Below, piece by piece: positions 3,361 through 51,816 of a stretch of DNA of 64,000 nucleotides. The stretch's first letter is position 1. Every line of letters begins with the position of its first letter. The stretch covers positions 472,086-536,085 of the forward strand of contig CAWBTT010000002.1 of assembly GCA_963791815.1 (NCBI GenBank), in the 5' to 3' direction. The stretch comes from an uncultured Candidatus Micrarchaeota archaeon (GTDB taxonomy: Archaea; Micrarchaeota; Micrarchaeia; Anstonellales; Bilamarchaeaceae). The notes below the pieces were generated by a model that ran no database searches, was not told the origin of the DNA, and saw nothing but the letters and a program-made list of their open reading frames with translations. Position numbers and translations under genes: made by a program.

Positions 3361-5289
3361 ATGAAAATACTACAGTCAATCAAGAAAGAGATACTTGAAA
3401 CTGCCCATGATCACACCATGCTGGCAGCAGTCATAGCATTTCCGGTTTTTGTCATGCTTTTCATGGGAAGCGCCTTTGGCTCAGTTGAGATTCACGGACT
3501 CCCGATAGGTGTGGTGGGACCTACAGGCACGTCATTTTCATCAGTCTTGTTTTCTGGTTTGAATGAATCTCCGGCTTTCAACCTGGAGAACTACGATTCT
3601 GAAGCAAGTGCTATGGAAGCCTTCAGGAATGGGGAACTTCGGGCATTGATAATAGTTCCAGATGATTTCGAGAGCGCTCTAATAGCTGGAAATGGCTCCG
3701 AGGTCCGGATAGCCATTGACAATTCAGATATCGCGCTTCAGGAAGCTGTGCTCGCGGCAATGGGCTCTGTTGTGCAAGCATCATCCACCAACATCACCAA
3801 GAGCTATGTTTCTGCTGCCTGGCAGGATTTGTATTCCCTCAATCAGTCGGCAGCAGCAATGACCGGGGACATAAACGAGAGCAAGGCAAAAATGGAAAGC
3901 ACAAAGACAAGCATCGATGCAATCAGGCAGAATATCAGCAATATTGGAATTGATGAACTTGAAGATTCCATCGGAGCTGCAAAAGACGAGGTCAAAAAAC
4001 TGCAGGATGCTGCCACAACAGAACAGAATGGCAGCTTCATCAACCAAAGCGAGGATTTCCTTGCAAATGCCAGTTTCGCTCTTAATGAATCCATTGAGAC
4101 CATCGGCACCACCCATACAAGGCTGGTAAATCAGGAAGACGAGATTAATGACACGATTGATACCCTCGATATCTCAATTGCGACGCTTTCTTTGATTAAG
4201 AACTCAACTTCAGACCCCATAACCGCAGCGGCTCTTGATGTCAATATAGCGACGCTGCAAACACTCAGGAACACCACAGCGCAGCAGGCAGAAGACGTCC
4301 ACACACAGATTCAGGAACTTGAATCGCTTAATTCAACATTATATTCATTCCAAGGAGAGCTCGAGGGTTACTCAGGTCTGCTCGCAGAGGCACAAGCTAA
4401 CCAAAGCAAGCTTGTTGGAGATATGCTTGGGAGCCTGGGCGCATTGAATGATACATTCACTGGTGCAGAGGAAACAATTTCAAAACTAAAGGGGCTCTTT
4501 GAGCAGATTGAATCCACAACTGATGAAATCGATGATACTTTGGATGATGTTCTGGACCAGGTTGAATCTGTTGAGGCACTAATTGATTCGTTGCAGGGCA
4601 CAGTTGCGGCGCAGACTGGCAAGGACCCTGAAACCATAGCCGCCCCACTTTCAGTAAAGGTTGAGAACCAGTATGTTCGGGAAAGTTTTGTTGATTTCAT
4701 AATCCCCAGGGTGATTGCAGTTTCTCTTCTGTTCTCGTGTTTCCTCCTTGCATCGATAAGCCTGGTTCGGGAAAAGAGCGGAAGAACCATTGTAAGGCTG
4801 CTTATGATGCCAGGTGCCTTTGCCAACTCTATTGCTGCCAAGATAATTTCGGTGACCCTGATATCTCTGGGGCAGGTCGGGCTGATTCTGCTCATCGGAG
4901 TCGTTGTTTTCGCAGTCAGGGTTCCTGCAGATTTGATCGCGGTCGGAGTGGCCACTGCCGTATCAGCTCTTGTGCTCTCAGCAGTTGGAACTCTCGTCGG
5001 ATTTTATGCAAGAACGGAATCCGCCGCCATTCAGACATCTTTGCTAATAGCAATACCGATGCTGTTCCTTGGCAACATCATATTTTCACCGGACTTGCTT
5101 CCCGCATATACCCAGATTATGCAGCAGATGCTGCCCCTTGCCCACATTACTAACATATTCAAGATAGTCCTGATTACCTCGGGCAACCCAGGGGCGAGCT
5201 TGGTTCCTTTGTTATCGTACTTTGTCGTCCTTGCGCTCATAATAGCATTGCTCGTATACAAAAGAAGGGATATTACGAACTATATCTAG
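3361..5289 (+). CDS. ABC-2 family permease with a large extracytoplasmic coiled-coil insertion (YhgE/Pip-like domain)
   Basis: N-terminal TM helix, about 400 aa Q/E/L/D-rich coiled-coil segment, then a C-terminal cluster of about 5 TM helices typical of ABC-2 permeases. Start is 4 nt after the ATPase stop. Confidence 0.7.
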   Translation: MKILQSIKKEILETAHDHTMLAAVIAFPVFVMLFMGSAFGSVEIHGLPIGVVGPTGTSFSSVLFSGLNESPAFNLENYDSEASAMEAFRNGELRALIIVPDDFESALIAGNGSEVRIAIDNSDIALQEAVLAAMGSVVQASSTNITKSYVSAAWQDLYSLNQSAAAMTGDINESKAKMESTKTSIDAIRQNISNIGIDELEDSIGAAKDEVKKLQDAATTEQNGSFINQSEDFLANASFALNESIETIGTTHTRLVNQEDEINDTIDTLDISIATLSLIKNSTSDPITAAALDVNIATLQTLRNTTAQQAEDVHTQIQELESLNSTLYSFQGELEGYSGLLAEAQANQSKLVGDMLGSLGALNDTFTGAEETISKLKGLFEQIESTTDEIDDTLDDVLDQVESVEALIDSLQGTVAAQTGKDPETIAAPLSVKVENQYVRESFVDFIIPRVIAVSLLFSCFLLASISLVREKSGRTIVRLLMMPGAFANSIAAKIISVTLISLGQVGLILLIGVVVFAVRVPADLIAVGVATAVSALVLSAVGTLVGFYARTESAAIQTSLLIAIPMLFLGNIIFSPDLLPAYTQIMQQMLPLAHITNIFKIVLITSGNPGASLVPLLSYFVVLALIIALLVYKRRDITNYI

Positions 5290-5337
5290 TTAGCATTTCC
5301 TAGGAAATGAACTTGGTGGATGTTTTAATTAATAGAA

Positions 5338-6756
5338 ATGGAAGAAACAAATGTGCAAACATCAGACGTAAAAAAGCACGTGGATGGACAAACGGATCCA
5401 CTACTCTTTGATAGTAAATTCAAAGATACTACTCCAAATGGTTTCATCAATATATTCAGAATCCTGTCACGACAACGGAAAAGCAAAAGACCGCTAACCA
5501 CATACTACCATCTCGATAATCGATGCAAAGATAGGATACTAGGGAGATTACTGGAAAAATTCAGGACTCTAGATAATGCCGCAAAAGCCATCGTAACCCA
5601 CAATGAAAGAAATAAAGGAAAACGATATGCTTCAAAAATTAAAGAAAAGTGGAGGGTTAAGAACAATCTCCAAAATGGAAATGTCACAATTTGGCATGCT
5701 CGCGTAGTGAGTCTGGTCCTTGCAAAAAATCATGCGGAGGCTGTAGAGATATTCGAGGAATTGTTTTCCAATTCAAGATTTTTAGTAGCAAAAGGCAAGG
5801 AAATTAGGTGTCCGCATAAAATTTCTGAATTGGGGCCAGCAGGGGCATATCTGGCGGGAGTGGTTGCCGGAGACGGTCACATAACCAAAAGTCTCGATGA
5901 GATAAAGATAGTAGATGGACACCAAAACAAGCGCTGGAAAAAAGATACTTTTTTGTTCCTAAAAAGTATTGATGGGTTAATAAAGGAAAAATTCGGCCTT
6001 ACTGCTTTCGTCGAGGAGAAAGACAACTATTTGGTATTTAGGTACGCATCCACGTTACTATGTTCAATATTGAATCATGTTTACGAGATACCTGCAGGAA
6101 GAAAAAGTAAGAAGATAAGAATTCCGAAAATTGTAAAGAATGGGCCCCATGAGCACCTATTCTGGAGGGGAATTGTTGATACTGATGGAAGCATTAGAAA
6201 GGGAAGCAAATTGATACGAATGACAACGACATCGAAACAACTATTTTTGGATTTCTTAGACTTTTGTAAAAGACACAATATCCACACATTTAGCAGAAAA
6301 AACAAGTTTGCAGCATATGGAGTTGTGGTAGCAGAAGAAAGCATAGCAAATTTTGCTAGGATAGTTGGAAGCAACCACCCAAGAAAAAGAGCCAACTTGA
6401 TCGAATATTTGAAGAAAGGGGCTTCTTACAAAGTACCAGTGAGTAAAAAACCAAATGAAAGACTAAACAAGATCATTGCGTATCTTAGGCCATACCAAGG
6501 GAATGTTTATGTCAGATTGACTAGTAGAAGGGAAGCGGTCGGGGAAGAAGTGGTGGAGAGATTGAAAAATATTGAGAAAGTGGTTGGGATGAGGCTTGTA
6601 GAAGTTAAAAGACCCAGAAAAAACAACCATTTTTATATTTGTTCGAGGGAGTTATTGAATGAAATAAACGAATGCTATGAATTCAAACATGTTTGGAGTC
6701 CGCTGAGTGACGAAGAAATTAATAGGATGAAAATACGGTGGGATAGATATGAATGA
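5338..6756 (+). mobile_element. Free-standing double-motif LAGLIDADG homing endonuclease gene (472 aa)
   Basis: Two LAGLIDADG motifs, LAGVVAGDGHITKS and WRGIVDTDGSIRKG, about 100 aa apart. Markedly AT-rich relative to flanks. No Hint/intein splicing motifs. A different frame from trpS rules out an in-frame intein. Confidence 0.75.
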
Positions 6757-7849
6757 GACGATTGATCCGTGGGGCCAAGTTAATGTAAAGAATTATGATC
6801 GTCTTTGCAAGAATTTCGGTATTGGTGATTTTTCAAAAATGGCTGTAGAAATGCCCGAGGCACCAATTTACATAAAAAGAAATTGTATTTTTGGCCATAA
6901 AGACTTTGGGCCGATTTTAAATGCGATAAAGAACAAAAAAAGATTCGTAATGATGACTGGTCTGATGCCATCGGGCAGTTTTCATTTTGGCCACAAACTA
7001 GTGGCAGATCAGATAATTTATTATCAAAAATTGGGCGCGGAGTGTTTTATTGCAGCTGCAGACCTGGAAGCATATCTGACCAGAGATATCCCATTGGACA
7101 AAGCAAGAGAAACCGCGATAGAAGAGTACCTCCTAAATTACATTGCCCTTGGATTAAAACCAGAAAAAACGCACTTTTACTTTCAAACTAATTGGAAAAA
7201 CGATTACTTGAATCTAAGTAAATTTGTTTCTAAAAAAACGACATTCAATGAGGTTAAAGCGATTTATGGAAACATAAATCCATCAAAGATTGTTTCGGCT
7301 TTGACCCAGGTGGCAGATATATTACACCCACAATTGGAAGTGTTCGGAGGGCCCAGGCCCACGGTGGTACCAGTGGGTGCGGACCAATTGCCCCACATAA
7401 ATTTCACACGGGATATCGCTGCTAGAATGAAGTCTGAATTTGGATTTGTGCTGCCCTCAGCAACATTCCACAAACTCATCCCTGGATTGCAGGGAGGCAA
7501 GATGAGCTCTTCAGTACCAGAAAGCAGCATCCTTTTCTCAGATAATCCCAAGACAATAAAAAAGAAGATAATGAAGTATGCTTTTAGTGGTGGCCAGGCT
7601 ACGATAGAAGAACACAGAGAAAAGGGTGGGAACCCAGACATTGACATTCCGTTCCAGTGGTTGAAGATGATCTTTGAGCCAGACGATAAGAAACTCAAGA
7701 AGATAGAGGATGATTACAGAAGCGGTAAGCTGCTTACTGGAGAACTCAAGCAAATTCTTGTCGAAAAAATAGATATGTTTTTAGAGGAACACAACAAACG
7801 TAGAGAGAAAGCCAGACGAGACATGCCTAAATTTATAGAAAACCAATAA
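6749..7849 (+). CDS. trpS: Tryptophanyl-tRNA synthetase (archaeal/eukaryotic type)
   Basis: HIGH-region equivalent SGSFHFGHKLV and KMSSS (KMSKS) motif. N-terminal DPWGQVNVKNYDRLCKNFGI matches the archaeal TrpRS N-terminus. The start overlaps the endonuclease stop by 8 nt. Confidence 0.9.
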   Translation: MNETIDPWGQVNVKNYDRLCKNFGIGDFSKMAVEMPEAPIYIKRNCIFGHKDFGPILNAIKNKKRFVMMTGLMPSGSFHFGHKLVADQIIYYQKLGAECFIAAADLEAYLTRDIPLDKARETAIEEYLLNYIALGLKPEKTHFYFQTNWKNDYLNLSKFVSKKTTFNEVKAIYGNINPSKIVSALTQVADILHPQLEVFGGPRPTVVPVGADQLPHINFTRDIAARMKSEFGFVLPSATFHKLIPGLQGGKMSSSVPESSILFSDNPKTIKKKIMKYAFSGGQATIEEHREKGGNPDIDIPFQWLKMIFEPDDKKLKKIEDDYRSGKLLTGELKQILVEKIDMFLEEHNKRREKARRDMPKFIENQ

Positions 7850-7861
7850 ACAGGTACACAA

Positions 7862-9365: not shown

Positions 9366-10334
9366 TCACTTCTTCATTTTCATTGATTCTTCAACGACTT
9401 TAGCAATGCCGTCTGAATCAAGTAAGTATTTTTTCAAAAGGTCTTTTGAGGAGCCAGATTCGCAGAAGCGATCATACACCCCGTGCCTCTTCAATGGACA
9501 TGCATTCTCTTCAGCAAGGACTTCTGCAACAGCGCTTCCAAGACCGCCGTTTATCTGGTGCTCTTCCACAGTTACTATGAGTCCACTCCGTTTTGCATGC
9601 TTGAGAATTGTTTCTCGGTCAATCGGCTTGATTGTATGGCAGTCCACCACCGCAGCGTCAATCCCCTTTTCTTTGAGAAGTTCTGCTGCTTTTAGTGATT
9701 CGTAAACCATTACTCCGTGGGCGAATATCGCGACGTCCTTTCCTTCTCTGTATGTGTTGGCCTTGCCGATTTCAAATGGGGTTTCTTCGGTTGTGAAGAC
9801 CGCAGATTTCTCCCGCGAGGTTCTCATGTAGCAGGGAGTATCGGTTGCCGCGGCCGCGATGGTTGCTTTGCGCGCTTCCTCCATGTCCGCAGGAGACATG
9901 ACAATCAGGTTTGGAAGGCACCTTGTGATTGCAAGGTCTTCGAGCGCTTGGTGTGATGCACCATCTGGGCCCACAGTCAATCCAGTGTGTGATGCGTGAA
10001 TGTTGACATTGACATTGTTGTAGCAGATTGCAACGCGAATCTGGTCCCAGTTTCGGCCAGGAGAGAATACGCCATATGCAGATATGAATGCCTTCTTTCC
10101 AGTTGCCGCGATTCCTGACGCGACCCCTGCAAGATTCTGCTCTGCAACTCCAACCTGAACAAATCTTTTTGGGAATTTCTCTGCAAACCAGTGGGTTCGG
10201 GTTGATTCTGAAACGTCTGCTGTGAGCGCCCACACATTTTCGTCTTTTTCCCCAAGCTCAACGAGTGCTTTTCCGAATCCGTCTCTACTGGGTTTCTTCA
10301 ATTCAGGATTGAAAATGTCTTTGATGAGTTTCAT
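9366..10334 (-). CDS. tktC: Transketolase, C-terminal subunit
   Basis: Pyrimidine-binding and C-terminal domain motifs ([39 protein letters not shown]). The likely true start is MKLIKDIF at about 10334, overlapping the tktN stop (ATGA). The ORF track N-terminal extension is not credible. Confidence 0.9.
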
Positions 10335-11188
10335 ATTTCTTCCTCCTCGATAAGCTTGCGCACGTTTTCCAGCTCTTTCAAAGCCCCATCCATATCCTCC
10401 TTGCTTGGAGGTTTGCCGTGCCATTCAAAGCGCTGTTCCATGAAAGAAACCGCCTTTCCAGGAATCGTGTGTGCGATTATCATTGTGGGCCTCTCATAAA
10501 CAGCTCTGCTCTCGTTGCACGCATCGATTATCTGTTTGATGTTGTGCCCATCAACATCAATGACGTGCCAGCCAAATGCCCGATATTTCTCTTCTATCGG
10601 TTCAAGGGGCATCACATCCTCAGTGTAACCATCTATCTGGATATTGTTTCGGTCCATGATAACGGTCAGGTTGCCGAGTTTGTGTTTAGCTGCGAGCATT
10701 GCGGCCTCCCAGCTCTGGCCTTCCTGCTGCTCACCATCTGAGACCATGCAGTAGACCCTCCACTTCTTGCGCTCAGCCTTTGCAACAAGCGCCATTCCAA
10801 CTGCCTGGGAAAGGCCCTGGCCAAGCGGGCCTGAGGAATTCTCAATTCCAGGAAGCGCCCCTTTGTGCGGGTGGCCTTGGAGCCTGGAGCCAAGTTTTCT
10901 GAGTGTCATGAGTTCTTCTTTGGGGAAGTAACCGGAGTTGGCCAGCGCAGAATAAAGAACGGGGCAGACGTGGCCGTTTGAAAGTACGTGCCGGTCGCGC
11001 TCCTGCCAGTCTGGTTTTTCCGGGTCGTGATAAAGCACGCTGAAGTATAACGCGGCATAGATATCTGCAAGGCCTATTGAGCCTGCCGAGTGGCCGCTTT
11101 TTGCTTCGTGAAGCATTTTGACTACGTCCTGCCTGATGGTGTTTGCCATCAGGTTGAGTTTCTTGATGTTGTTGGTTCTCTTCATCAT
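10331..11188 (-). CDS. tktN: Transketolase, N-terminal (TPP-binding) subunit
   Basis: GHSAGSIGLADIYAALYF, GHPHKG, SSGPLGQGLSQAVGMA, MVSDGEQQEGQSWEA. Start likely MMKRTNN overlapping the rpe stop. Confidence 0.9.
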   Translation of the reverse strand: MMKRTNNIKKLNLMANTIRQDVVKMLHEAKSGHSAGSIGLADIYAALYFSVLYHDPEKPDWQERDRHVLSNGHVCPVLYSALANSGYFPKEELMTLRKLGSRLQGHPHKGALPGIENSSGPLGQGLSQAVGMALVAKAERKKWRVYCMVSDGEQQEGQSWEAAMLAAKHKLGNLTVIMDRNNIQIDGYTEDVMPLEPIEEKYRAFGWHVIDVDGHNIKQIIDACNESRAVYERPTMIIAHTIPGKAVSFMEQRFEWHGKPPSKEDMDGALKELENVRKLIEEEEI

Positions 11189-11826
11189 TTCGGACACCCA
11201 GACTGCGCGCATTCTTTCAATTCTTTGACCGCTTGGCCAATATCCTCGTTTGCGAATATGGCGCTAGCAGCAGCAAGATAATTGGCACCGGCAGCATAGG
11301 CCCTGCCGATTGTTTTTTTGTTGATTCCGCCATCTGCTCCGATGTTAAGGTTCGGATGAAGTTCGCGGAGTTTCTTGATTTTTGACTCCATTTCCTGGAT
11401 ATAGCTCTGGCCTGAGAATCCGGGGCGGACAGTCATGATTAGGATTTCCTCCACATCTTGGATGTGTGGAAGGACCGATTCTAAAGGAGTCTCAGGATTC
11501 ATTGCAAGGCCAAGCCTTCCGCCAGCTTTTTGAACAGTAGATTTGATATTTTCAAAAGAAGAAACGGTTTCTATATGAACTAGGTGGAGGTGCGGGCCAG
11601 GAGTTGCCTCAATCCATTTCTCAGGATTGTTGACCATCCAGTGGAATCCATAATTTGCTTCAGGAAGGTCGGTGAGGCTCTCAAGGCCGATTGTCTTGTT
11701 TGGGACGAACTCGTTGTCCATGATGTCGATGTGGATTATATTGACATGTTCTTTGACAAGAGAGATGCGGCGCAGAAGCTCCCCCCTGCTTTTGACTAGG
11801 ATTGCTGGTATTATCTCTAGCTCCAT
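11185..11826 (-). CDS. rpe: Ribulose-phosphate 3-epimerase
   Basis: MELEIIPAILV ... HIDIMDNEFVPN ... HLHLVHIE ... GADGGIN. Start taken at the internal Met at 11826. The ORF track's upstream extension is not supported. Confidence 0.85.
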   Translation of the reverse strand: MELEIIPAILVKSRGELLRRISLVKEHVNIIHIDIMDNEFVPNKTIGLESLTDLPEANYGFHWMVNNPEKWIEATPGPHLHLVHIETVSSFENIKSTVQKAGGRLGLAMNPETPLESVLPHIQDVEEILIMTVRPGFSGQSYIQEMESKIKKLRELHPNLNIGADGGINKKTIGRAYAAGANYLAAASAIFANEDIGQAVKELKECAQSGCPK

Positions 11827-14023: not shown

Positions 14024-15415
14024 ATGGTTGTGAAAGTCAGCAGTGCGAATTTTGATGAAAAGCACGAGGAGTGTGGAGTTGTCGCCATCTATTCCAAGAA
14101 AGGCGCAGATGTTGCTCCGCTCCTTTACCGGGCGCTGATTGCGCTCCAGCACCGGGGCCAGGATGCGGCAGGTTTTGCAGTTCAGAATGAAACTGGAATT
14201 GAGACCAGAAGAGGGATTGGTCTTGTTGACCAGATTTTCAGGCCAGAAGACCTTGAAGTGAAAGGAGATTTTGGAATTGGACATACCAGATACCCCACAA
14301 TAGGAGAATGCAGGCAGTGCGATGTCCAGCCTTCTGTGTATGAAGACATGGCAAGCGCGCACAATGGCCACATATCCAACTACGGCGTGCTCAAGGAAAA
14401 GCTGGAAAAAGAAGGGTACAAATTCACAAGCACTGTTGATTCGGAACCTGTTCTTTATGTCTTCCATTTGCGCAAGAACCCTGAAGCGGCTGCCAAGGAA
14501 ACAATCGAAACTTTTGAAGGTGCCTTTTCAGATGTCGTTATTGCAGAGAAAAAGCTGTTCGTCTTCAGAGACAGATTTGCGCTCCGCCCCCTTGTTTGGG
14601 GAGAGAATGACGATTTCATTTGTTTTGCATCCGAATCCGTTGCTCTTGATGTTAATGGCATACCGTACAAGGGAGATGTGAATGGCGGCGAGTTTATTGT
14701 TGTTGATAAGGGCCAGATTGTTGAGAGAAAGCAGCTGGTTCCGGAAAACAAGAAACATTGCATGTTTGAATATGTTTATTTCTCACGGCCAGACTCAATC
14801 ATCAATGGAAAAAGTGTTTATGATGTCCGCTGGCGGTTGGGTGAGATTCTTGCAGAAGAGGCCCCGGTGAAGGCAGATGTGATAGTCCCGGTTCCAGACA
14901 CCTCCAGAACCGCTGCTGGCGCATATTCGGAAAAAACAGGAATTCCTTATGCCGAGGGGCTCATAAAGAACAGATACATAGGACGCACATTCATCATGCC
15001 GGATCAGGAAAAAAGAATCAATGCAGTAAAGCTCAAGCTCAATCCACAACGCTCAGTCATTGAAGGAAAATCAGTTGTTTTGGTGGATGATAGCATTGTA
15101 CGAGGAACAACTCTCAGGGAGATTGTTAGGCTTGTAAGGAATGCTGGCGCAAAAGAAGTCCACCTGAGGATTACATGTCCCCCTGTGCGGGCTCCTTGTT
15201 TCTATGGGGTTGACATGTCAACATACAAGGAACTGATTGCAAACAAGAAAACAATTGAGAAAATTCGCGAGCATCTTGGGGCAGACAGCCTTAACTACAT
15301 TAGTGTAGATGGACTGAAGAGGGCGATTGGACTCCCTTCTTGCACCGCGTGCCTGACTGAGGAATATCATTCAGAATTTGTGAAAAGGCTTGCAGAAAAA
15401 GAAAAATCAGCGTGA
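14024..15415 (+). CDS. purF: Amidophosphoribosyltransferase
   Basis: ECGVVAIY nucleophile Cys region, PRTase motif VVLVDDSIVRGTT, C-terminal Cys cluster. Confidence 0.9.
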   Translation: MVVKVSSANFDEKHEECGVVAIYSKKGADVAPLLYRALIALQHRGQDAAGFAVQNETGIETRRGIGLVDQIFRPEDLEVKGDFGIGHTRYPTIGECRQCDVQPSVYEDMASAHNGHISNYGVLKEKLEKEGYKFTSTVDSEPVLYVFHLRKNPEAAAKETIETFEGAFSDVVIAEKKLFVFRDRFALRPLVWGENDDFICFASESVALDVNGIPYKGDVNGGEFIVVDKGQIVERKQLVPENKKHCMFEYVYFSRPDSIINGKSVYDVRWRLGEILAEEAPVKADVIVPVPDTSRTAAGAYSEKTGIPYAEGLIKNRYIGRTFIMPDQEKRINAVKLKLNPQRSVIEGKSVVLVDDSIVRGTTLREIVRLVRNAGAKEVHLRITCPPVRAPCFYGVDMSTYKELIANKKTIEKIREHLGADSLNYISVDGLKRAIGLPSCTACLTEEYHSEFVKRLAEKEKSA

Positions 15416-15419
15416 GATT

Positions 15420-17000
15420 ATGGTAGTTGTCGAGTTTGAATATAGGGAGATGAAAAAGCTAATTGACATTCCAAGAGACGAGATGGTAGAGGGATTAAGC
15501 AGTCTTGGCGCCCCATGCGAATATGAACCAGAAACAAAGAAAATCGTCGCTGAGTTAACACCTAACAGGCCAGACTGGTACTCTATGGAAGGCCTTGCCA
15601 GAGCATTGCGGGCATATTACCAGAAGACACATCCCAAGTATTCTGTAAAAAAATCAGACTACAAGGTTGTTGTAGACCCGTCAGTATCCAAGGTAAGGCC
15701 GCACACTGTGTGTGCTGTTGTGCGGGGACTTGAATTTGATGACCAAAGAATCCGCGATGTTGTTCTTCTCCAGGAAAAATTGCTTGGAACATTGGGGCGG
15801 AGAGTGAAAAGGTTTGGTATTGGTGTGTATCCGTTGCATGCAATCAAATTCCCAATCAAATACACCACTATGAAACCAGAGGAAATCAAATACGTGCCTC
15901 TTGGGTATGAAAATGAGATGACTGCTAAGCAGATACTTGAGGAACACAAAAAAGGAAAGCAATATGGGCATCTCATAAAGGACTTTGACAGATATCCAGT
16001 TTTCACTGACGCTGATAACAAGATAATGTGCCTTATACCGATAGTCAACTCTGCAGAAACGGGAAAGGTGGATGAAGAAACAGAGGACGTGTTCCTTGAA
16101 GTTTCAGGGACTTCAATGCACGCTTGCAAGGCAGCTCTCAATATCCTTGTGTGTACTTTTGCTGATATGGGCGGGCAGCCATATGAAGTTCTGATGGAAT
16201 ACAAAAAAGAGAAATTCCATGCTCCAGATCTTTCTGAGAAAAAAATGAAGCTGGACCTCAATGAAGTCAGCAAGATACTTGGTCTTGAGGTCACTGATAA
16301 AATGGCCAAGGACCTGCTTGCAAAAATGGGATATACATACTCGAAAGGAGAAGTATCGGTGCCGCCATACCGGGCAGATATCCTAAGCATGATAGATGTT
16401 ATTGAAGATATTGCAATTGCATATGGATACAATAATTTCGAATTTACTTTGCCAGATTTCTTCACCCCCGGCGTACGGATTGATCCGAATGAAGAAGCAG
16501 ACAGAATAATGCGGGGAATGGGATTCAGTGAGATAAAGACCTTCATACTCACAAATAAGGAAAAACTGGCAGCTGTTGGTCATGGTGGGGATGTTGTTGA
16601 GATATCTAACCCTAACAATGTAGAATATACTGTTGTTAGGCCTACCCTGACAGCAGATATTCTTGATGTTTTCTCCAATAATAAGATGAAAGGACTGCCG
16701 CAGAAGTTTTACGAGTTTGGATTGGTCCAGACCAAAGAAACCAAAAGGAACCTGGTTTTTGGGATTATGGATAAGGAAGTCAAGTTTTCAGATGCCCGTG
16801 GCCATTTACAGACCCTTGCAAGGGAGTTGGGATTAGATTTGAGTTTAGAGAAGAAAGAACATCCGTTGTTTGAAGATGAGATTTCGTGTATTGTCAATAA
16901 TGGCAAGAAGGGAATTGGAATTTTTGGCAAGGTTAATAAGGATGTTCTTGAGAAATTCGGTCTTGATTTCGATGTTTATGTTTGTGAGCTTAAGCTATAG
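15420..17000 (+). CDS. pheT: Phenylalanyl-tRNA synthetase beta subunit (archaeal)
   Basis: MVVVEFEYREMKKLIDIP ... NRPDWYSMEGLARAL. Start taken at the internal Met just after the purF stop. Confidence 0.9.
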   Translation: MVVVEFEYREMKKLIDIPRDEMVEGLSSLGAPCEYEPETKKIVAELTPNRPDWYSMEGLARALRAYYQKTHPKYSVKKSDYKVVVDPSVSKVRPHTVCAVVRGLEFDDQRIRDVVLLQEKLLGTLGRRVKRFGIGVYPLHAIKFPIKYTTMKPEEIKYVPLGYENEMTAKQILEEHKKGKQYGHLIKDFDRYPVFTDADNKIMCLIPIVNSAETGKVDEETEDVFLEVSGTSMHACKAALNILVCTFADMGGQPYEVLMEYKKEKFHAPDLSEKKMKLDLNEVSKILGLEVTDKMAKDLLAKMGYTYSKGEVSVPPYRADILSMIDVIEDIAIAYGYNNFEFTLPDFFTPGVRIDPNEEADRIMRGMGFSEIKTFILTNKEKLAAVGHGGDVVEISNPNNVEYTVVRPTLTADILDVFSNNKMKGLPQKFYEFGLVQTKETKRNLVFGIMDKEVKFSDARGHLQTLARELGLDLSLEKKEHPLFEDEISCIVNNGKKGIGIFGKVNKDVLEKFGLDFDVYVCELKL

Positions 17001-38936: not shown

Positions 38937-38973
38937 GCTTTTAATGCTGTTGCGACATGATTACTCCCTAATT

Positions 38974-39046
38974 GGGCTCGTAGTCGAATGGTTAAGACGT
39001 TACCTTGACATGGTAAAGATTCCCAGTTCGATCCTGGGCGGGCCCA
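38974..39046 (+). tRNA. tRNA-Val (anticodon GAC)
   Basis: Cloverleaf folded by hand: acceptor GGGCTCG/CGGGCCC, anticodon stem TTACC/GGTAA with loop TTGACAT, T-arm CCCAG-TTCGATC-CTGGG, discriminator A, no encoded CCA. Followed by the T-rich tract ttctgtttttcggggg. Confidence 0.85.
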
Positions 39047-45176: not shown

Positions 45177-45932
45177 ATGGAGGAGGAAGGACTACAGTGC
45201 TTTGTTTGCTCAAGAAGAACAACGGACCCCTACTATGTGAACGGGGTTCCCCTCTGCTCAACCTGCAGCACTCAGAAATCTGCAGAGGCTGAGAAGAGAT
45301 ACTGCAGCCGATGCACCGCATCTTCGGCCAACTCCATCATCCTTTACACCCAATACGGGCTGCTTTGCTCAACCTGCCGCTCAGAAGTTCGTGCTGTGGA
45401 GAAACCAACAGAATCGGTTCGTTTGCGCAGGCTTCTCAATGGGGCAATAGTCAAATTCTACAAGAATGGTAGGGAAGACGATTACCACGAGGAGCAATCT
45501 TCATTGCCGCTTATGCAGACTGCGGTGCACATTGCCCTGATTATCGCGCTCGTAGTTCTGCCTGTTTTTTCTGTTAACCCGCTCATCTTAGCTCTTGAAC
45601 TCAGCATCGTCATCGCCCTTGTTCTTCTTCTCGTTTCATTCCTATGGATAAGAATCAAAATCTATGATGATGAAATCCGCTGCCTCTACGGCCCATTCAC
45701 ATACTCGATAAACAAGTGCGACCTTGAGCAGGTTGAAATCATCACTCCGCAAAACTACCTTGCCTATGGAATGATGATTAGAAGGAATCCGCATGGGTGG
45801 GTCTTGAAATTCATCCGCGGCCCAGGCCCTGGGATATTAATCAGAAAGAAATCCGGCCTCTTCCGCTCAGTTTTCATCAGCAGCAGCGACCCTGTGAACC
45901 TGCTGCAGAAAATCGCGAAGAAGCTCTGTTAG
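45177..45932 (+). CDS. Hypothetical protein with N-terminal double zinc-ribbon and two TM helices
   Basis: CFVCS ... CSTCS and CSRCT ... CSTCR Cys pairs, then a hydrophobic segment. Confidence 0.45.
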   Translation: MEEEGLQCFVCSRRTTDPYYVNGVPLCSTCSTQKSAEAEKRYCSRCTASSANSIILYTQYGLLCSTCRSEVRAVEKPTESVRLRRLLNGAIVKFYKNGREDDYHEEQSSLPLMQTAVHIALIIALVVLPVFSVNPLILALELSIVIALVLLLVSFLWIRIKIYDDEIRCLYGPFTYSINKCDLEQVEIITPQNYLAYGMMIRRNPHGWVLKFIRGPGPGILIRKKSGLFRSVFISSSDPVNLLQKIAKKLC

Positions 45933-45970
45933 CCGTCTCCATTTTAATATCTTATCCGGTTATTTCTTTT

Positions 45971-47704
45971 ATGTCGGTAAAAGTTTTATTTTCATTATCC
46001 ATAGTTTTGATTTTTCTTCTTGGCTGCGTTTCAGCACCTCCAGAAGATGTTTCGCCGCGTGACCTTGAAATCCGCATAAATAATGGCAAGGCCGCAACTG
46101 CCTCAGCAGATGTCCAGCTTTCCCTTTTCGCGCGCCACGCTGCTGACTGCCGCATCTCAAATGATGGTTCTTCTTGGGGTCCATGGGAGAGTTACTCAAT
46201 TGACAAATCCTGGACACTTGATGGCGCGGATGGCCTGAAGCAGGTCTTCTACCAGTGCCGCAACTCTGCAGGAGAACTCTCATCAACAGTATCAGAATCA
46301 ATAGAGCTTGACTCAACACACCCAACAATATCGCTCTCGAGCCCCGAATCCGGAAAAACATATTACAACTCTGTTGAGCTTGCATTCAATGTGAGCGACC
46401 CTGCCTCAGACACGGTTAAGTGCAGCGCAACCATCGGAAACACGGTGCAGGAACTTGGCATCCTTCATACTGACAAGCCGCAGAGCGTCCTGATTAGCCT
46501 TTCTACGGGTGAAAAATCATTATCACTCACCTGCAGCGATGGCGTCCACTCAACATCGAAAAACATTTCATTTACAATGAAAAAGAAGCCCGTGGTCACA
46601 GTCCGTATCAATGGCGGCTCTGATTATACCGAGAGCAAAAACGTTACATTGGACTTGAGTTCGGCAACTGCAACCGAGTGCCGTTTCTCAAGAGGCCAAA
46701 CACAATGGAGCAACTGGGAGCCCTATACTGGAAGCGCCGCTTGGATTCTCAAGGGCAATGACGGAAACAAGAGGGCATATGCCCAGTGCCGCGATTCAAA
46801 CGGCATCGAATCTGAAATCGCAGAAGACACAATAATCCTCGATACCCAGCCTCCGCCCTACATTTCGCTAAGCATAAACAACCACGCGGCCTGGACTTTC
46901 TCGCAGGATGTGGCTCTTGGACTTTATGCATATTCTGCCAAGGAATGCAGATTCTCAAACGACGGCCAAAGCTGGAGTGCCTGGGAGGCATACTCGACAA
47001 AGAAAACCTGGAAGCTAACCGACGGCGAAGGGGAGAAAACAGTCCATTATGAGTGCAGGAACAAAAGCGGGGGCGATTTGGGCATAGTCTCAACAAAGAT
47101 TAACTACTCGACAATTCCCCCCACTTCTCCATCTGCATTGAGCATCCAAATAAACAACGGCGAGGAATACACATCCTCGGAAAACATGCAGCTTTCTCTG
47201 AGTGCTGCCGGCGCGTTTGAATGCCGGCTTCGCGAAGGCAGCCTGGACTGGAGCGCCTGGGAAAATTTTGTTGATGCAAAGACATTCAAGATTACTGGAA
47301 ACGACGGGGCAAAGACAATCTACTACCAGTGCAGGAACAGCCACGGAAGCACAACCGTCTTTGACCGCATCTATCTGGACAGGGGCGCACCCTCACAGGT
47401 TAAAAGCCTGAAAGCAGCTGCAAGTCCGTATTCTGTTGTACTTAGCTGGGGAGCAGCCTCTGATTCTGGAAGCGGCATCGAGTCCTACTCGGTTTTCAGG
47501 AAAGTGGACAGTGCATGGAAGTGGATTGGTTCTGTTTCAGGCCTTAGTTTCAAGGATGAGGGGGTAGTGTCAGGAGAATCTTACGAATATAGGGTGGGCG
47601 CTCTTGATTACAACCGAAACGCTGGCTCATTCTCCGAGGTGAATGTGCAGGTTCCTGTTGAAGGCGAAAGTGGTATTTTGCGAGTATCCGGCGAGCCTTC
47701 TTGA
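45971..47704 (+). CDS. Lipobox surface protein with four tandem ~90-aa two-Cys domains and a C-terminal fibronectin-III-like domain
   Basis: Signal plus LLGC lipobox. Repeats share INNG..YT.S..V.L.LSA..A.ECR(F/L)S.DG..WS.WE.Y...K.W.L.G.DG.K..YYQCRN. The C-terminus YSVVLSWGAASDSGSGIESYSVFRK ... YEYRV is FN3-like. Start taken at MSVKVLFSL. The ORF track N-terminal extension overlaps the previous gene. Confidence 0.55.
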   Translation: MSVKVLFSLSIVLIFLLGCVSAPPEDVSPRDLEIRINNGKAATASADVQLSLFARHAADCRISNDGSSWGPWESYSIDKSWTLDGADGLKQVFYQCRNSAGELSSTVSESIELDSTHPTISLSSPESGKTYYNSVELAFNVSDPASDTVKCSATIGNTVQELGILHTDKPQSVLISLSTGEKSLSLTCSDGVHSTSKNISFTMKKKPVVTVRINGGSDYTESKNVTLDLSSATATECRFSRGQTQWSNWEPYTGSAAWILKGNDGNKRAYAQCRDSNGIESEIAEDTIILDTQPPPYISLSINNHAAWTFSQDVALGLYAYSAKECRFSNDGQSWSAWEAYSTKKTWKLTDGEGEKTVHYECRNKSGGDLGIVSTKINYSTIPPTSPSALSIQINNGEEYTSSENMQLSLSAAGAFECRLREGSLDWSAWENFVDAKTFKITGNDGAKTIYYQCRNSHGSTTVFDRIYLDRGAPSQVKSLKAAASPYSVVLSWGAASDSGSGIESYSVFRKVDSAWKWIGSVSGLSFKDEGVVSGESYEYRVGALDYNRNAGSFSEVNVQVPVEGESGILRVSGEPS

Positions 47705-47745: not shown

Positions 47746-48435
47746 TTAGATTCTGTTCAAAGACTCTTTGATGTCCTCAACAGACATCCTGGTCACAATC
47801 ATCGGGATTCTCTCCCGGTCAGAAATTTTCATGGCCAGTTTGTCCACCTTATCCGGCTCAATATTATGCAATACAATTGCAGAAGGCTTTGAAGGACTGA
47901 CCCTTACGACTACGAACGGGCTCCTCCCAGTTGAAATCCCGGTGAAGATGAAAACCCTCTGGTTGACATTGCCATAAAGGTTCTGGAAATATGAGAATGG
48001 CATATCAAGAATCACCTTGATGCTGTCTATCAAAGTATATCCATAGATTTTCTTAGCCTCAAGTATGTCTGCGTTTGTCAGAACTTTGCCCCCAATCAGT
48101 TCAACAAAATCTTTCAGCGAAATCGACCTTGCAAACTCATGCACTTCGAAATATTCGCTGACTGGCTTCTCCTTCTCCCTGAACTTGGATGCGATGTGCC
48201 CGCCCTTTGTCTGGTCAATATCAAAAAGGGCCATGACAAATCTTCTCACTACATGGGTTCCAGGGGATTTCCTCCTGTTGCCTTCGTAGTCGCTGATAGT
48301 AGAAACAGTGATTCCAAGATGCTTTGCAAGTTCTACTTGTGAAATGCTGAATATCTCTCTCCACTTCCTCATGGTCGCCCCTGGGTCATCTGAGAGTGAA
48401 ATTTCGCCCGCAATCTCCATCTTTATTTTTTCCAT
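47746..48435 (-). CDS. HTH XRE-family (Cro/C1-type) DNA-binding protein with uncharacterised C-terminal domain
   Basis: ISQVELAKHLGITVSTISDYEGNRRKS helix-turn-helix near the N-terminus. Confidence 0.55.
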   Translation of the reverse strand: MEKIKMEIAGEISLSDDPGATMRKWREIFSISQVELAKHLGITVSTISDYEGNRRKSPGTHVVRRFVMALFDIDQTKGGHIASKFREKEKPVSEYFEVHEFARSISLKDFVELIGGKVLTNADILEAKKIYGYTLIDSIKVILDMPFSYFQNLYGNVNQRVFIFTGISTGRSPFVVVRVSPSKPSAIVLHNIEPDKVDKLAMKISDRERIPMIVTRMSVEDIKESLNRI

Positions 48436-50074: not shown

Positions 50075-50232
50075 CTCAAAAATTGTTTTAAGCTTTGGCT
50101 ATTCAAGCAGCGAAAAAGGAACATGCCTCCCCCTCACCGCTCCATATATATATATAATTTCCCTGTTTTTTCTTTACAGTTAAGGTGAATTCTATGGATG
50201 GACGAAGAAACAGGAGAAATGTTAATGCTGGA

Positions 50233-51816
50233 ATGTCAAGAAGGCAGTTCCTCAAGACCACTGGAATTGCAGTCGCAGGCGCAGGCGCTGCTGCGGCCGG
50301 TTTGGCCGGGGCCGCGAATGCCAATCTATCTAACCGACCGTTCCCTGAATCCGTGGCCGGAGGGGGGAATAACTACAATGTCTGGCCTGTGGGGAACGAT
50401 AACCTAACACATGTCCATCCCAAGACAAACGAGCCTTGCACCCAGGATGCCTTCAATGTCCAGTATGCTGTCGATAATGTGGATGAAGGGGGCGTCGTAA
50501 GGTTGCATTCAAAGAACATGAAAACCGAAGCGACCTATTTCCAGTTCGGCCAGTCCAATGTGACTGTCCACAAATCAGTTACTATCATCGGACAGTCCGA
50601 CCACGGAAAGACCAAAGCTCTTGTCAAAGGCTCATCCTCGAAATCGTTAAATGCGACCGGGGGGCCCAACCAGAACTACGCGCCTGAACTCGTAGGCATC
50701 TTCAATATCTATGCACCTGGAAAGGAAGTGGAATTCAACAATCTCGCCATAGACCACACATTCACCCATGTGATATCCGAGAATTTCTCCACATTCGGAT
50801 CAATCACACTGCCCAATAGGGGTAGCGCTCTTTTGAAGGTGCTCAACTGCGATATCGATACGATTGCATCATCCGCGGTAGCCACTCCCGCAAGCCCGGC
50901 AAAGAGCAAAATCGTGAGGAACTGCAAGATAAGGGGGAAGGCGGACATGGTGGATGGCAACTATTCCTGCATTAATGTAGGGAGCTTCGGCGATTCCCCT
51001 CCGAATCTGCTCGATGCTCGGATAGAGGTCACAGACTGCCATCTAGACTCTGCTCTTTTCGTCGGAGTGATCATCTTGGATGGCTACAGCAATGCCAACA
51101 CCGTCATTGATGTCAAACGCAACCGAATCGGGCATACTCCTCGCCAGCCAAACCCGGTCAACGGGATAGTCGAAGCGACTTCTGTCGGTGTAATCGTTGG
51201 CGCGCCTTTCCTCGGGAATCCGCAGAATCCGATTTTCGCGCCTATCAATGGAAAGATAACCATTGTTGAAAACATGATTAAACTATCGAGATATTACTCC
51301 GGTGGGCCACTCGCCGGAGGAATCTCCACGACGCCTGAAAAAGATGGGAATGTCCTGATAGAGAACAACATTATCGATTTCTCGTTGCCCTTCAAATTGC
51401 CAGAGCCAGCTCCTGGTTTATCCGTTATCATCGGATTGGATGCCATAACTTACGAGGATTTCACCGAAGAGGCCACTGCGCTTATACAGAACAACACTAT
51501 TCTGACGAGCAAGCCTCCGTACGCTCCCAGCCTCGTTCCGGTGCATTACGGGGTAGCGCTGGGCAACGAATCGGCATTGGGCGGTTTCGTCAAATCATCG
51601 GCAAAAAATGTGACTGTGCAGAACAACGACTACTCGGGATTGGCGGTGGTGCCATACCTGAGACTCAGTTCATTAGGGCCTCAATTCACCCCGGGTTTCG
51701 CCATGTTCATGAACGACCTGACCAATGGCAACACCGCAATCGAGCCGGGCCTGACCTGTGCTGACATAAACGACCTTGGGTCCAATTCGGTCACAGCTGG
51801 AGGAGTCAACTGCTGA
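50233..51816 (+). CDS. Tat-signal secreted protein with right-handed parallel beta-helix (pectin-lyase-like) repeats
   Basis: Twin-arginine motif SRRQFLKTTGIAVAGAGAAAA. Repeated NxIxG/Vx.N-type beta-helix rungs. Noticeably higher GC than neighbours. Confidence 0.6.
   Translation: MSRRQFLKTTGIAVAGAGAAAAGLAGAANANLSNRPFPESVAGGGNNYNVWPVGNDNLTHVHPKTNEPCTQDAFNVQYAVDNVDEGGVVRLHSKNMKTEATYFQFGQSNVTVHKSVTIIGQSDHGKTKALVKGSSSKSLNATGGPNQNYAPELVGIFNIYAPGKEVEFNNLAIDHTFTHVISENFSTFGSITLPNRGSALLKVLNCDIDTIASSAVATPASPAKSKIVRNCKIRGKADMVDGNYSCINVGSFGDSPPNLLDARIEVTDCHLDSALFVGVIILDGYSNANTVIDVKRNRIGHTPRQPNPVNGIVEATSVGVIVGAPFLGNPQNPIFAPINGKITIVENMIKLSRYYSGGPLAGGISTTPEKDGNVLIENNIIDFSLPFKLPEPAPGLSVIIGLDAITYEDFTEEATALIQNNTILTSKPPYAPSLVPVHYGVALGNESALGGFVKSSAKNVTVQNNDYSGLAVVPYLRLSSLGPQFTPGFAMFMNDLTNGNTAIEPGLTCADINDLGSNSVTAGGVNC

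What the first reader, a model, noticed from the sequence alone, without database searches (positions are those of the whole stretch)
5290..7860. Free-standing LAGLIDADG homing endonuclease gene translationally coupled to trpS inside an AT-rich island
A 472-aa ORF with two LAGLIDADG motifs (LAGVVAGDGHI / WRGIVDTDGSI) sits directly upstream of tryptophanyl-tRNA synthetase. Its stop overlaps the trpS start by 8 nt (ATGAATGA). It is in a different frame and has no Hint/splicing motifs, so it is not an in-frame intein. Both the endonuclease gene and trpS are visibly AT-rich (about 38-40% GC) against flanking genes near 50%. Archaeal LAGLIDADG genes are normally inside inteins or rRNA introns, so a free-standing one welded to an aminoacyl-tRNA synthetase suggests a mobile cassette that delivered or replaced trpS. 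Alternatively it is a degenerated intein that escaped its host gene. The 150-aa N-terminal extension is unassigned.
Basis: partly seen in the sequence, partly recalled or inferred. Interest (0 to 1): 0.7.

Follow-up and report, generated by a model that had tools for sequence, protein, structure and literature searches.

The report
Homing-endonuclease gene docked onto archaeal trpS
A stand-alone, apparently active DNA-cutting "selfish" gene sits fused to the front of the tryptophanyl-tRNA synthetase gene in this small (DPANN-type) archaeon, and comparison with about 30 related genomes shows it is one member of an undescribed family that repeatedly attaches to, decays at and disappears from the borders of essential genes.

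Summary
A 472-aa ORF (5338-6756) has both LAGLIDADG motifs. Its stop overlaps the trpS start by 8 nt. It and trpS are the two most AT-rich of 54 window ORFs.

About 19 distinct relatives (30-52% identity) lie directly upstream of trpS with stop/start overlap, wherever downstream DNA is available.

Evidence for a free-standing homing endonuclease gene (HEG):
- Both catalytic Asp are kept in about 60 family members.
- dN/dS is 0.19.
- Close relatives with the same synteny have empty sites.
- Decayed copies exist: one 55-codon 3' relic, two 5'-truncated copies, one frameshift.
- Sister LAGLIDADG genes sit on deeply different TrpRS types.
- In five homologs the ORF begins with about 17 codons of a trpS 5' end.
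- Sister subfamilies dock on ABCE1, topA and alaS.

The AT-richness recurs in all lineages examined. trpS is as diverged as its flanking genes. So a recent "cassette delivery" into this genome is not supported.

Cleavage and homing are inferred, not shown.

The parts
5290..5337 (+). 48-nt spacer between the ABC-2 permease stop and the LAGLIDADG ORF; AT-rich (TTTTAATTAATA at 5323-5334). No promoter was established.
   Evidence: sequence. In endonuclease-less relatives this position holds a small minus-strand ORF or 0.2-0.6 kb of non-coding DNA.
5338..6756 (+). Free-standing LAGLIDADG homing-endonuclease gene, 472 aa including the parts listed below
5338..5394 (+). 19-codon N-terminal leader before the family-wide (N/T)DPLL motif. 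In five homologs this leader is a recognisable copy of the first ~17-20 codons of a trpS gene. In the window it has decayed.
   Evidence: homologs: scores 46-89 for L003, L013, L097, L099, the shuffle maximum of 44-46 being exceeded in 0 of 5000; P0007 scored 50 with 0 of 2000; window vs L097 leader 6/18 identities, 108/5000 shuffles: weak
5515..5772 (+). N-terminal five-helix bundle (res ~60-145), tentatively an XRE/Cro-like helix-turn-helix DNA-binding domain
5815..6372 (+). Double-LAGLIDADG nuclease core (res ~160-345). Motif 1 at 5848-5883 with D179 (5872-5874). Motif 2 at 6157-6195 with D283 (6184-6186).
6373..6753 (+). C-terminal alpha/beta domain (res 346-472) with family-wide motifs IGxSHPRK, LRPY and PWxPL..EI..L..W; fold unassigned
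6737..6756 (+). Coupling junction: Shine-Dalgarno-like GGTGG (6737-6741) inside the last codons of the endonuclease gene, trpS ATG at 6749, endonuclease stop TGA at 6754-6756
   Evidence: same junction in homologs; stop/start overlaps in the other trpS-linked loci; a relic of exactly this 3' end is retained upstream of trpS in the endonuclease-less L094
6749..7849 (+). trpS, tryptophanyl-tRNA synthetase, 366 aa, 'IDPW' N-terminal type; host gene of the element

Best explanation
The ORF is a free-standing LAGLIDADG homing-endonuclease gene that has made the 5' border of trpS its home.

What the sequences show:
- It is a monomeric two-motif nuclease with both catalytic aspartates, plus extra N- and C-terminal domains.
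- Its 3' end carries the ribosome-binding site of trpS, and its stop overlaps the trpS start.
- The protein is under purifying selection.
- The gene is present, decayed or absent at the same locus in related genomes.
- Its tree conflicts with the TrpRS tree.
- In several homologs it begins with the first ~17 codons of a trpS gene.

What is inferred:
- The enzyme cuts endonuclease-less trpS alleles in or near the conserved 5' coding region, around codon 17 ('..DY|KLI..FG').
- The break is repaired from an endonuclease-bearing copy, so the gene spreads together with adjacent trpS sequence. This is 'intronless homing'.
- Because it sits between the expression signals and trpS, only its 5' part can be deleted freely. 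That explains the 3' relics.

In the window's lineage the element looks old and vertically inherited since the clade ancestor, with losses in sister lineages. It is not a recent arrival.
For: Fold and motifs:
- D179 and D283 are invariant in 25 diverse members and present in about 60 locus ORFs.

Fixed target:
- Every homolog of at least 30% identity with readable downstream DNA lies immediately upstream of trpS, with a stop/start overlap in nearly all (one JGI contig has a 54-nt gap instead).
- This holds although other neighbours differ.

Selection:
- dN/dS is 0.185 at dS 0.25, against 0.073 for trpS.

Empty sites:
- L091/L092 and L094/L095 have the window's synteny (ABC ATPase, ABC-2 permease, [ ], trpS ... 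DUF35, TAL, TKT).
- Their TrpRS is 75-76% identical to the window's. L093, L096, L098, L005 and L006 are also empty.

Decay series:
- L094 keeps a frameshifted relic of the last ~55 codons abutting trpS.
- L023 lacks ~95 N-terminal codons.
- L027 has a 1-nt frameshift at motif 2, while its 88%-identical relative L019 is intact.
- ABCE1-linked L085 keeps only res 240-459.

Incongruence:
- LAGLIDADG sisters (L017,L018) 82% and (L021,L024) 96% each pair a type-B with a type-A TrpRS.
- The type-B clade has 100% bootstrap. Identities are LAGLIDADG 57-63% against TrpRS 26-29%.

trpS-derived leader:
- It heads the ORF in L003, L013, P0007, L097 and L099.

Sister subfamilies:
- They dock on other essential genes: ABCE1 with ATGA overlap, and topA and alaS convergently.
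Against: - No cleavage, target site or homing event has been observed; all mobility evidence is comparative.
- Within the window's clade the gene tree is congruent with TrpRS and with flanking genes. That means long vertical persistence, which a purely selfish element can sustain only if homing keeps occurring.
- No within-population presence/absence polymorphism was examined.
- The TrpRS-type switches could reflect replacement of trpS under a resident gene rather than movement of the endonuclease gene. L021 and L024 also share the upstream ABC-2 permease, 47% identical.
- No conserved candidate recognition sequence distinguishing empty from occupied alleles was found.
- The accessory HTH-like domain, and the HTH_3 domains in paralogs, would equally suit a regulator.
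Confidence: 0.6

Rival explanations
1. Domesticated LAGLIDADG protein. On this view the nuclease scaffold, with its extra DNA-binding domains, has been recruited by the host. It might act as an autoregulator of the operon it heads or as a factor functionally tied to TrpRS, in the manner of WhiA. It would be kept by ordinary host-level selection.
For: - Purifying selection.
- Conserved pairing and translational coupling with trpS over TrpRS divergence from 75% down to 38%.
- Vertical co-inheritance in the window's clade.
- An XRE-like N-terminal bundle, and HTH_3 inserts in paralogs.
Against:
- Close relatives with identical synteny do without the gene.
- Relics and frameshifts show that loss is tolerated.
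- The tree is incongruent with TrpRS.
- Paralogous subfamilies sit beside unrelated essential genes, some convergently, where co-regulation is implausible.
Confidence: 0.2
2. Inactive hitch-hiker. The endonuclease no longer homes. The ORF persists only because its translation and its 3' end are needed in cis for trpS expression, through operon capture and translational coupling.
For: - The SD-like GGTGG and the trpS start lie inside the ORF's 3' end.
- Deletions spare exactly this 3' end.
Against: - A purely cis role would not keep dN/dS at 0.19 along the whole protein.
- It would not keep both catalytic Asp and the accessory-domain motifs invariant at 20-50% identity.
- Endonuclease-less relatives express trpS without it.
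Confidence: 0.1
3. One reading: a recently acquired AT-rich mobile cassette carrying both the endonuclease gene and a foreign trpS, which delivered or replaced trpS in this genome.
For: - Both genes are compositional outliers in the window.
- The leader of homologs derives from a different (canonical) trpS type than the trpS downstream.
- TrpRS types have switched under sister endonuclease genes.
- So cassette-type replacement may have happened in deeper history.
Against: - TrpRS divergence equals that of the flanking genes, and trpS occupies the same syntenic slot in endonuclease-less relatives.
- The GC deficit is shared by all four HEG-bearing lineages measured and by trpS of some endonuclease-less relatives, so it is not un-ameliorated foreign DNA.
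- There are no repeats, integrase or tRNA at the borders. The only tRNA in the window is at 38973.
Confidence: 0.07
4. One reading: a degenerated intein that escaped its host gene.
Against: - No Hint or Intein_splicing hit.
- Residues 60-145 form a helical bundle, not a beta-rich Hint fold.
- The ORF has its own start and stop, and no Cys/Ser/Thr or His-Asn junction residues.
- The full-length relatives found, where their contexts were read, are likewise stand-alone ORFs.
Confidence: 0.03

Closest known systems
Archaeal monomeric LAGLIDADG homing endonucleases (I-DmoI, I-Tsp061I; nuclease domains of PI-PfuI, PI-PkoII, Tli VMA intein)
   Same: - Same Pfam family PF14528.
- Acidic residue at the end of each LAGLIDADG helix.
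   Different: - Those enzymes are encoded inside rRNA introns or inteins. This one is a separate ORF with no intron RNA (Rfam scan) and no Hint domain.
- It adds a ~160-aa N-terminal and a ~125-aa C-terminal domain that have no Pfam model.
- Sequence identity to any solved structure is too low for phmmer.
Free-standing homing endonucleases of T-even phages (Seg, Mob; 'intronless homing', PMC2988022)
   Same: - An independent ORF wedged next to conserved genes.
- Presence/absence at a fixed locus among relatives.
- Expected co-conversion of neighbouring sequence.
- It would work like this.
   Different: - The phage enzymes are GIY-YIG or HNH proteins in viral genomes.
- They were shown experimentally to cut and to exclude markers (PMC2988022).
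- Here the enzyme is LAGLIDADG and the host is a cellular DPANN archaeal chromosome.
- The gene overlaps and is probably translationally coupled to its host gene.
- In part of the family it is fused in frame to the host gene's first ~17 codons.
- Nothing has been tested experimentally.
WhiA / DUF199 (bacterial regulator built on a LAGLIDADG scaffold plus HTH)
   Different: - WhiA has lost the catalytic residues and is universally conserved in its lineages (established knowledge).
- This family keeps both Asp, is patchy and decays.
Integrative elements that carry a replacement end of their target gene (for example elements integrating into tRNA genes and restoring the 3' end); an analogy from general knowledge
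   Same: In the window's clade the locus reads [first ~17 codons of a trpS]-[endonuclease]-[complete trpS with its own, different N-terminus]. It looks as if an element entered the gene and brought a substitute gene end.
   Different: - Those elements use integrases and attachment sites and restore RNA genes.
- Here the enzyme is a homing endonuclease and the restored part would be the 5' end of a protein-coding gene.
- This is an inference from five homologs, not from the window itself.

Membership tests
LAGLIDADG homing endonucleases (single-chain, two-motif) | Two LAGLIDADG helices, each ending in a conserved acidic residue followed by Gly | tested here: met
   YLAGVVAGDG (D179) and FWRGIVDTDG (D283); invariant in A1 and A2 and in about 60 locus ORFs
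LAGLIDADG homing endonucleases (single-chain, two-motif) | Pseudo-dimeric alpha-beta-beta-alpha-beta-beta-alpha fold | tested here: met
   [not shown]
LAGLIDADG homing endonucleases (single-chain, two-motif) | Curated family model matched above threshold | tested here: met
   PF14528, 43.7 bits against cutoff 22.5; only the second domain is matched. No NCBIfam or PHROG model matches.
LAGLIDADG homing endonucleases (single-chain, two-motif) | Site-specific double-strand cleavage of a long target | not testable with these tools
   Needs recombinant protein and substrates
Free-standing HEG with intronless homing | Independent ORF, not within an intron or intein | tested here: met
   Own start and stop, frame different from trpS; no Rfam intron family in the window; no Hint hit
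Free-standing HEG with intronless homing | Occupied and empty alleles of the same locus among relatives | tested here: met
   L091/L092, L094/L095, L096, L098 are empty against the occupied window with shared synteny; L006 is empty against occupied L019/L027
Free-standing HEG with intronless homing | Horizontal spread: gene tree incongruent with host gene or host | tested here: inconclusive
   There are two well-supported conflicts with the TrpRS tree. In-situ replacement of trpS cannot be excluded, and the window's own clade is congruent.
Free-standing HEG with intronless homing | Cleavage of the endonuclease-less allele and co-conversion of flanks | not testable with these tools
   No experiment possible. 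No discriminating site was found in alignment A3.
Inteins | Hint splicing domain (blocks A, B, F, G) | tested here: not met
   No Intein_splicing or Hint Pfam hit at E<=1. The region N-terminal to the nuclease is a helical bundle.
Inteins | In-frame insertion within a host protein, with nucleophile at +1 and terminal His-Asn | tested here: not met
   Separate ORF ending ...RWDRYE*, overlapping trpS in another frame
WhiA-like domesticated LAGLIDADG regulators | Catalytic acidic residues lost | tested here: not met
   Both Asp retained throughout
WhiA-like domesticated LAGLIDADG regulators | Uniform conservation as a host gene within the lineage | tested here: not met
   Empty sites, relics and a frameshift
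Intron-encoded LAGLIDADG endonuclease or maturase | ORF embedded in a group I or archaeal bulge-helix-bulge intron | tested here: not met
   At gathering thresholds Rfam matches nothing but tRNA-Val at 38974. The downstream trpS is complete on its own. Bulge-helix-bulge motifs were not searched for specifically.

The most novel reading that the evidence does not exclude
DPANN archaea may harbour a whole family of free-standing LAGLIDADG homing endonucleases that colonise the borders of essential protein-coding genes (trpS, ABCE1, topA, alaS) without an intron or intein.

The trpS lineage would enter the coding sequence near codon 17. It would take over the gene's promoter, start codon and first codons for itself. 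It would bring a substitute start and N-terminus for the interrupted gene, translationally re-coupled.

That would be a third way, besides introns and inteins, for a homing endonuclease to live inside an essential gene. It would also be a driver of xenologous replacement of aminoacyl-tRNA synthetase genes.
Probability: 0.3. Interest if true: 0.8.

Novelty: new variant of a known kind. Interest (0 to 1): 0.62.

Why it matters
Homing endonucleases in cellular genomes are thought to need a self-splicing intron or intein to sit harmlessly in conserved genes. Free-standing ones are known mainly from phages and organelles.

Here a cellular archaeal lineage shows a free-standing LAGLIDADG family with a fixed address at the edge of an essential gene. 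The full invasion, decay and loss series is visible in public metagenomes. There is also a footprint (a trpS-derived leader) that points to where it entered.

If the enzymes are active, three things follow:
- They add a new set of long-target nucleases with extra DNA-binding modules, of interest for meganuclease engineering.
- They give a concrete mechanism for lateral exchange of aminoacyl-tRNA synthetase genes.
- They indicate ongoing DNA exchange among DPANN archaea.

No paper linking LAGLIDADG enzymes with trpS or with DPANN genomes was found in the held library.

Tried and rejected
1. Intein or Hint origin: rejected.
2. Recent horizontal import inferred from AT-richness: rejected. The deficit recurs in all four HEG-bearing lineages measured (window, L001, L003, L004) and in trpS of some empty loci, and pheT is similar.
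3. Co-conversion gradient inside trpS (5' third more AT-rich than 3'): seen in the window only, not in L001, L003 or L004, so dropped.
4. The family-wide N-terminal 'NDPLL' motif as a relic of the TrpRS 'IDPW' motif: rejected, because ABCE1-, topA- and other-linked paralogs have it too.
5. Trp-codon attenuation, with a conserved Trp codon inside the GGTGG just before the trpS start: rejected as trpS-specific, because ABCE1-linked paralogs end with the same Trp.
6. A trpS-like leader in the window itself: not significant against TrpRS N-termini and only weak against the L097 leader.
7. A second family member or relic elsewhere in the window: the only extra hit (48283-48381) is an unrelated XRE-type HTH.
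8. Relics in the empty sites L091, L093, L096, L098: none found.
9. Viral origin: one weak core-only hit in IMG/VR (27% over 148 aa) and no PHROG match.
10. Solved-structure sequence search: no hit.
11. The AlphaFold-database fold library was unavailable.
13. Identity of the C-terminal domain: not resolved (no prediction jobs left).
Full report
**1. What is in the window**

The ORF at 5338-6756 (+) encodes 472 aa. Pfam finds LAGLIDADG_3 (PF14528, E 3.5e-11) over residues 274-344 and nothing else. NCBIfam, PHROGs and a sequence search of the PDB give nothing.

The downstream ORF 6749-7849 is tryptophanyl-tRNA synthetase. TIGR00233 scores 279.9 bits against a cutoff of 176.75, and NF008925 scores E 2.8e-130.

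The endonuclease stop (TGA, 6754-6756) lies 8 nt into trpS (ATG at 6749). A Shine-Dalgarno-like GGTGG sits at 6737-6741.

The two genes are the two most AT-rich of 54 ORFs in the window:

| Gene | GC | GC3 |
|---|---|---|
| LAGLIDADG ORF | 0.383 | 0.370 |
| trpS | 0.401 | 0.417 |
| 54 window ORFs, mean | 0.470 | 0.517 |

**2. What the protein is**

An AlphaFold2 model built on nine homologs is confident (pLDDT 86.8, pTM 0.83).

The C-terminal alpha/beta domain (346-472) is unassigned. There is no Hint domain, so the ORF is neither an intein nor an obvious escaped one.

**3. The family and its address**

A word-indexed search found nine full-length homologs at 42-52% identity. A full HMM search of 1.84 billion representatives found 38 at E<1e-30 and 337 at E<1e-10.

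Members of 450-600 aa share:
- an N-terminal (N/T)DPLL motif;
- both LAGLIDADG motifs;
- IGxSHPRK;
- a C-terminal PWxPL..EI..L..W motif.

Some carry an HTH_3 insert. Both catalytic Asp positions are invariant in 25 aligned members and present in about 60 ORFs recovered from loci.

Genomic contexts came from four look-ups, a metagenome scan with tblastn and ORF calling, and later look-ups. They show that every homolog with at least ~30% identity and readable downstream DNA lies immediately upstream of trpS. That is about 19 distinct loci. Nearly all have a stop/start overlap; one has a 54-nt gap.

The other neighbours vary, and TrpRS identity to the window ranges from 77% down to 38%.

More distant paralogs (at most 28% identity) have other constant neighbours:
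- ABCE1/RLI directly downstream with an ATGA overlap;
- topA or alaS convergently;
- a PD-(D/E)XK nuclease gene convergently;
- a 1100-1400-aa ORF downstream.

**4. Is it a host gene or a selfish one?**

For host-like behaviour:
- Within the window's clade the gene tree matches TrpRS and the flanks. Between the window and L001, TrpRS is 75% identical, TAL 71%, TKT 67-75% and the LAGLIDADG protein 48%.
- The protein is under purifying selection. dN/dS is 0.185 at dS 0.25, against 0.073 for trpS.

For selfish behaviour there are five lines of evidence.

(a) Empty sites. L091/L092 and L094/L095 (GCA_016926175.1) have the window's exact synteny: ABC ATPase, 640-aa ABC-2 permease, trpS ... DUF35, TAL, TKT. 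Their TrpRS is 75-76% identical, and their flanking proteins are as close or closer to the window than those of endonuclease-bearing L001 and L003. They lack the gene. L093, L096, L098, L005 and L006 are also empty. L006 shares its upstream gene with occupied L019 and L027. Endonuclease-less L005 nests inside endonuclease-bearing TrpRS groups (91-95% bootstrap).

(b) Decay.
- L094 keeps, right against trpS, a frameshifted relic of the last ~55 codons. It reads 'NGHFYICLKNLLQNI' and 'IKKLKEYWDKYE', against the window's 'NNHFYICSRELLNEI' and 'INRMKIRWDRYE'.
- L023 has lost ~95 N-terminal codons.
- L027 has a 1-nt deletion at the second motif relative to its intact 88%-identical relative L019.
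- ABCE1-linked L085 keeps only residues 240-459.
- Deletions always spare the 3' end that carries the downstream gene's initiation region.

(c) Incongruence. In neighbour-joining trees with 300 bootstraps, the LAGLIDADG sister pairs (L017,L018; 82%) and (L021,L024; 96%) each join a locus with 'type-B' TrpRS to one with 'type-A' TrpRS. The type-B clade is L008/L009/L010/L017/L024, with 100% support. Identities are LAGLIDADG 57-63% against TrpRS 26-29%. Either the endonuclease gene moved onto a very different trpS twice, or trpS was replaced under it twice. L021 and L024 also share the upstream permease (47%), which favours replacement in that pair.

(d) A footprint. In five members of the window's clade the ORF begins with a copy of a trpS 5' end:
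- L099 'MQKEFKVTPWEVGGEIDYIK' is 15/20 identical to the TrpRS N-terminus of L008.
- L097 reads 'MNFTVTPWDVKGEVDYD|NDPLL'.
- L013, L003 and P0007 show the same feature.
- For L003, L013, L097 and L099, alignment scores are 46-89, and the shuffle maximum (44-46) is exceeded in 0 of 5000 shuffles. P0007 scored 50, with 0 of 2000 shuffles reaching it.
- These leaders resemble canonical TrpRS N-termini far more than the N-terminus of their own downstream TrpRS (scores 22-33).
- The window's 19-residue leader has the same length and position but is no longer recognisable. It is not significant against TrpRS and matches the L097 leader at 6/18 positions, with 108/5000 shuffles doing as well.

(e) The paralogous subfamilies sit on other highly conserved essential genes. 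That is what homing endonucleases target and not what a dedicated trpS factor would do.

**5. Mechanism proposed**

Shown:
- The enzyme scaffold and catalytic residues.
- The fixed address at trpS.
- The coupling architecture.
- Purifying selection.
- Gain/loss and decay.
- The leader.

Inferred:
- The protein cuts endonuclease-less trpS alleles in or near the conserved 5' coding region. The leader/body junction ('..DY|') points to about codon 17.
- Repair from an occupied allele copies the gene, with adjacent trpS sequence, into the broken one. This is intronless homing as in T-even phages (PMC2988022).
- Because the element sits between the expression signals and trpS, and supplies the ribosome-binding site, only imprecise 5' deletions are tolerated. 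This slows loss.

In the window's lineage the element appears ancestral to the clade and is still intact. Sister lineages have lost it.

I put this explanation at 0.6. A domesticated regulator is at about 0.2, an inactive cis-required hitch-hiker at about 0.1, a recent endonuclease-plus-trpS cassette import at about 0.07, and an escaped intein at about 0.03.

**6. The composition signal**

The GC deficit of both genes recurs in L001, L003 and L004. trpS is also GC3-poor relative to its flanks in the endonuclease-less L091 and L096, by about 0.12. In the window, pheT is the third most AT-rich ORF.

It is therefore a persistent property of these genes, not evidence of recent transfer. Its cause is unexplained.

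**7. Organism**

The nearest TrpRS sequences carry the labels Woesearchaeota, Nanoarchaeia, 'Micrarchaeota' and Aenigmarchaeota. So the window is from a DPANN archaeon. The window's own genome was not among the species representatives scanned.

**8. Novelty**

The fold and the concept (a free-standing homing endonuclease next to a conserved gene) are known. What was not found described in four literature searches or in Pfam, NCBIfam or PHROGs:
- the family itself;
- its constant docking on trpS, and of sister families on ABCE1, topA and alaS, in cellular archaeal chromosomes;
- the overlap coupling;
- the in-frame capture of the host gene's first codons.

I class it as a new variant of a known kind.

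**9. Limits**

- No biochemical evidence.
- Most loci are short metagenomic contigs.
- The trees are distance-based.
- The direction of the TrpRS-type switches is unresolved.
- The C-terminal domain is unassigned.
- Whether the genome has a second trpS cannot be checked beyond the window, which has none.

Noticed in passing
L031-L036, L085 (for example L035 5019-6398 and 6392-8164): A paralogous LAGLIDADG subfamily (456-475 aa) lies directly upstream of ABCE1/RLI, with its stop overlapping the ABCE1 ATG (ATGA). L085 keeps only the C-terminal half of the endonuclease gene.
   Followed up: partly
L042, L055, L061, L066 (topA); L028 (alaS); L044, L051-L053, L068-L071, L074, L079 (PD-(D/E)XK); L041, L043, L045, L046, L050, L067 (giant ORF): Further paralogous subfamilies (about 500-580 aa, some with an HTH_3 insert) have constant neighbours. 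These are type IA topoisomerase or alanyl-tRNA synthetase convergently overlapping the 3' end, a PD-(D/E)XK nuclease gene convergently, or an unannotated 1100-1400-aa ORF downstream.
   Followed up: partly
window 15390-17000 (and on to about 18300): The second AT-rich stretch of the window is pheT (PheRS beta chain; GC 0.417, GC3 0.426, third lowest of 54 ORFs). It is followed by an ADP-forming acyl-CoA synthetase-like gene. Two aminoacyl-tRNA synthetase genes are thus compositional outliers here.
   Followed up: partly
L091 3435-3905 (-), L094 3340-3798 (-): In the endonuclease-less relatives the slot between the ABC-2 permease and trpS holds a 152-156-aa minus-strand ORF with no Pfam hit. 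The two copies are 35% identical over 85 aa. It is absent from the window.
   Followed up: partly
window 3361-5289: The ABC-2 permease carries a ~270-residue coiled-coil-like insert between its two membrane halves (weak hits to FliJ, FlaC and DUF7310). The 638-641-aa size is conserved in L091 and L094. Shorter (509-516 aa) versions neighbour trpS in L013, L021 and L098.
   Followed up: no
JGI contig of P0003 (sample 3300042731), genes 335-2839: The contig carrying a trpS-linked homolog also encodes a RadA with an intein that has its own LAGLIDADG_3 domain, about 1.1 kb upstream. Intein-borne and free-standing LAGLIDADG genes coexist in one genome.
   Followed up: no
window 9366-10424 and 10331-11212 (-): Transketolase is encoded as separate N- and C-terminal genes whose longest ORFs overlap by 94 nt. 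They lie next to transaldolase and a DUF35 (zf-ChsH2/OB) gene. This block is syntenic in L001, L003, L094 and L096.
   Followed up: no
window 45797-47704, 50185-51816, 59987-61909: Three ORFs of 543-640 aa have no Pfam match at E<=1e-5.
   Followed up: no
L008 274-1275 and 1309-2451: In a Pacearchaeota MAG, a 333-aa class Ib synthetase (probably tyrS) sits directly upstream of the canonical-type trpS, in the position the LAGLIDADG gene occupies elsewhere.
   Followed up: no
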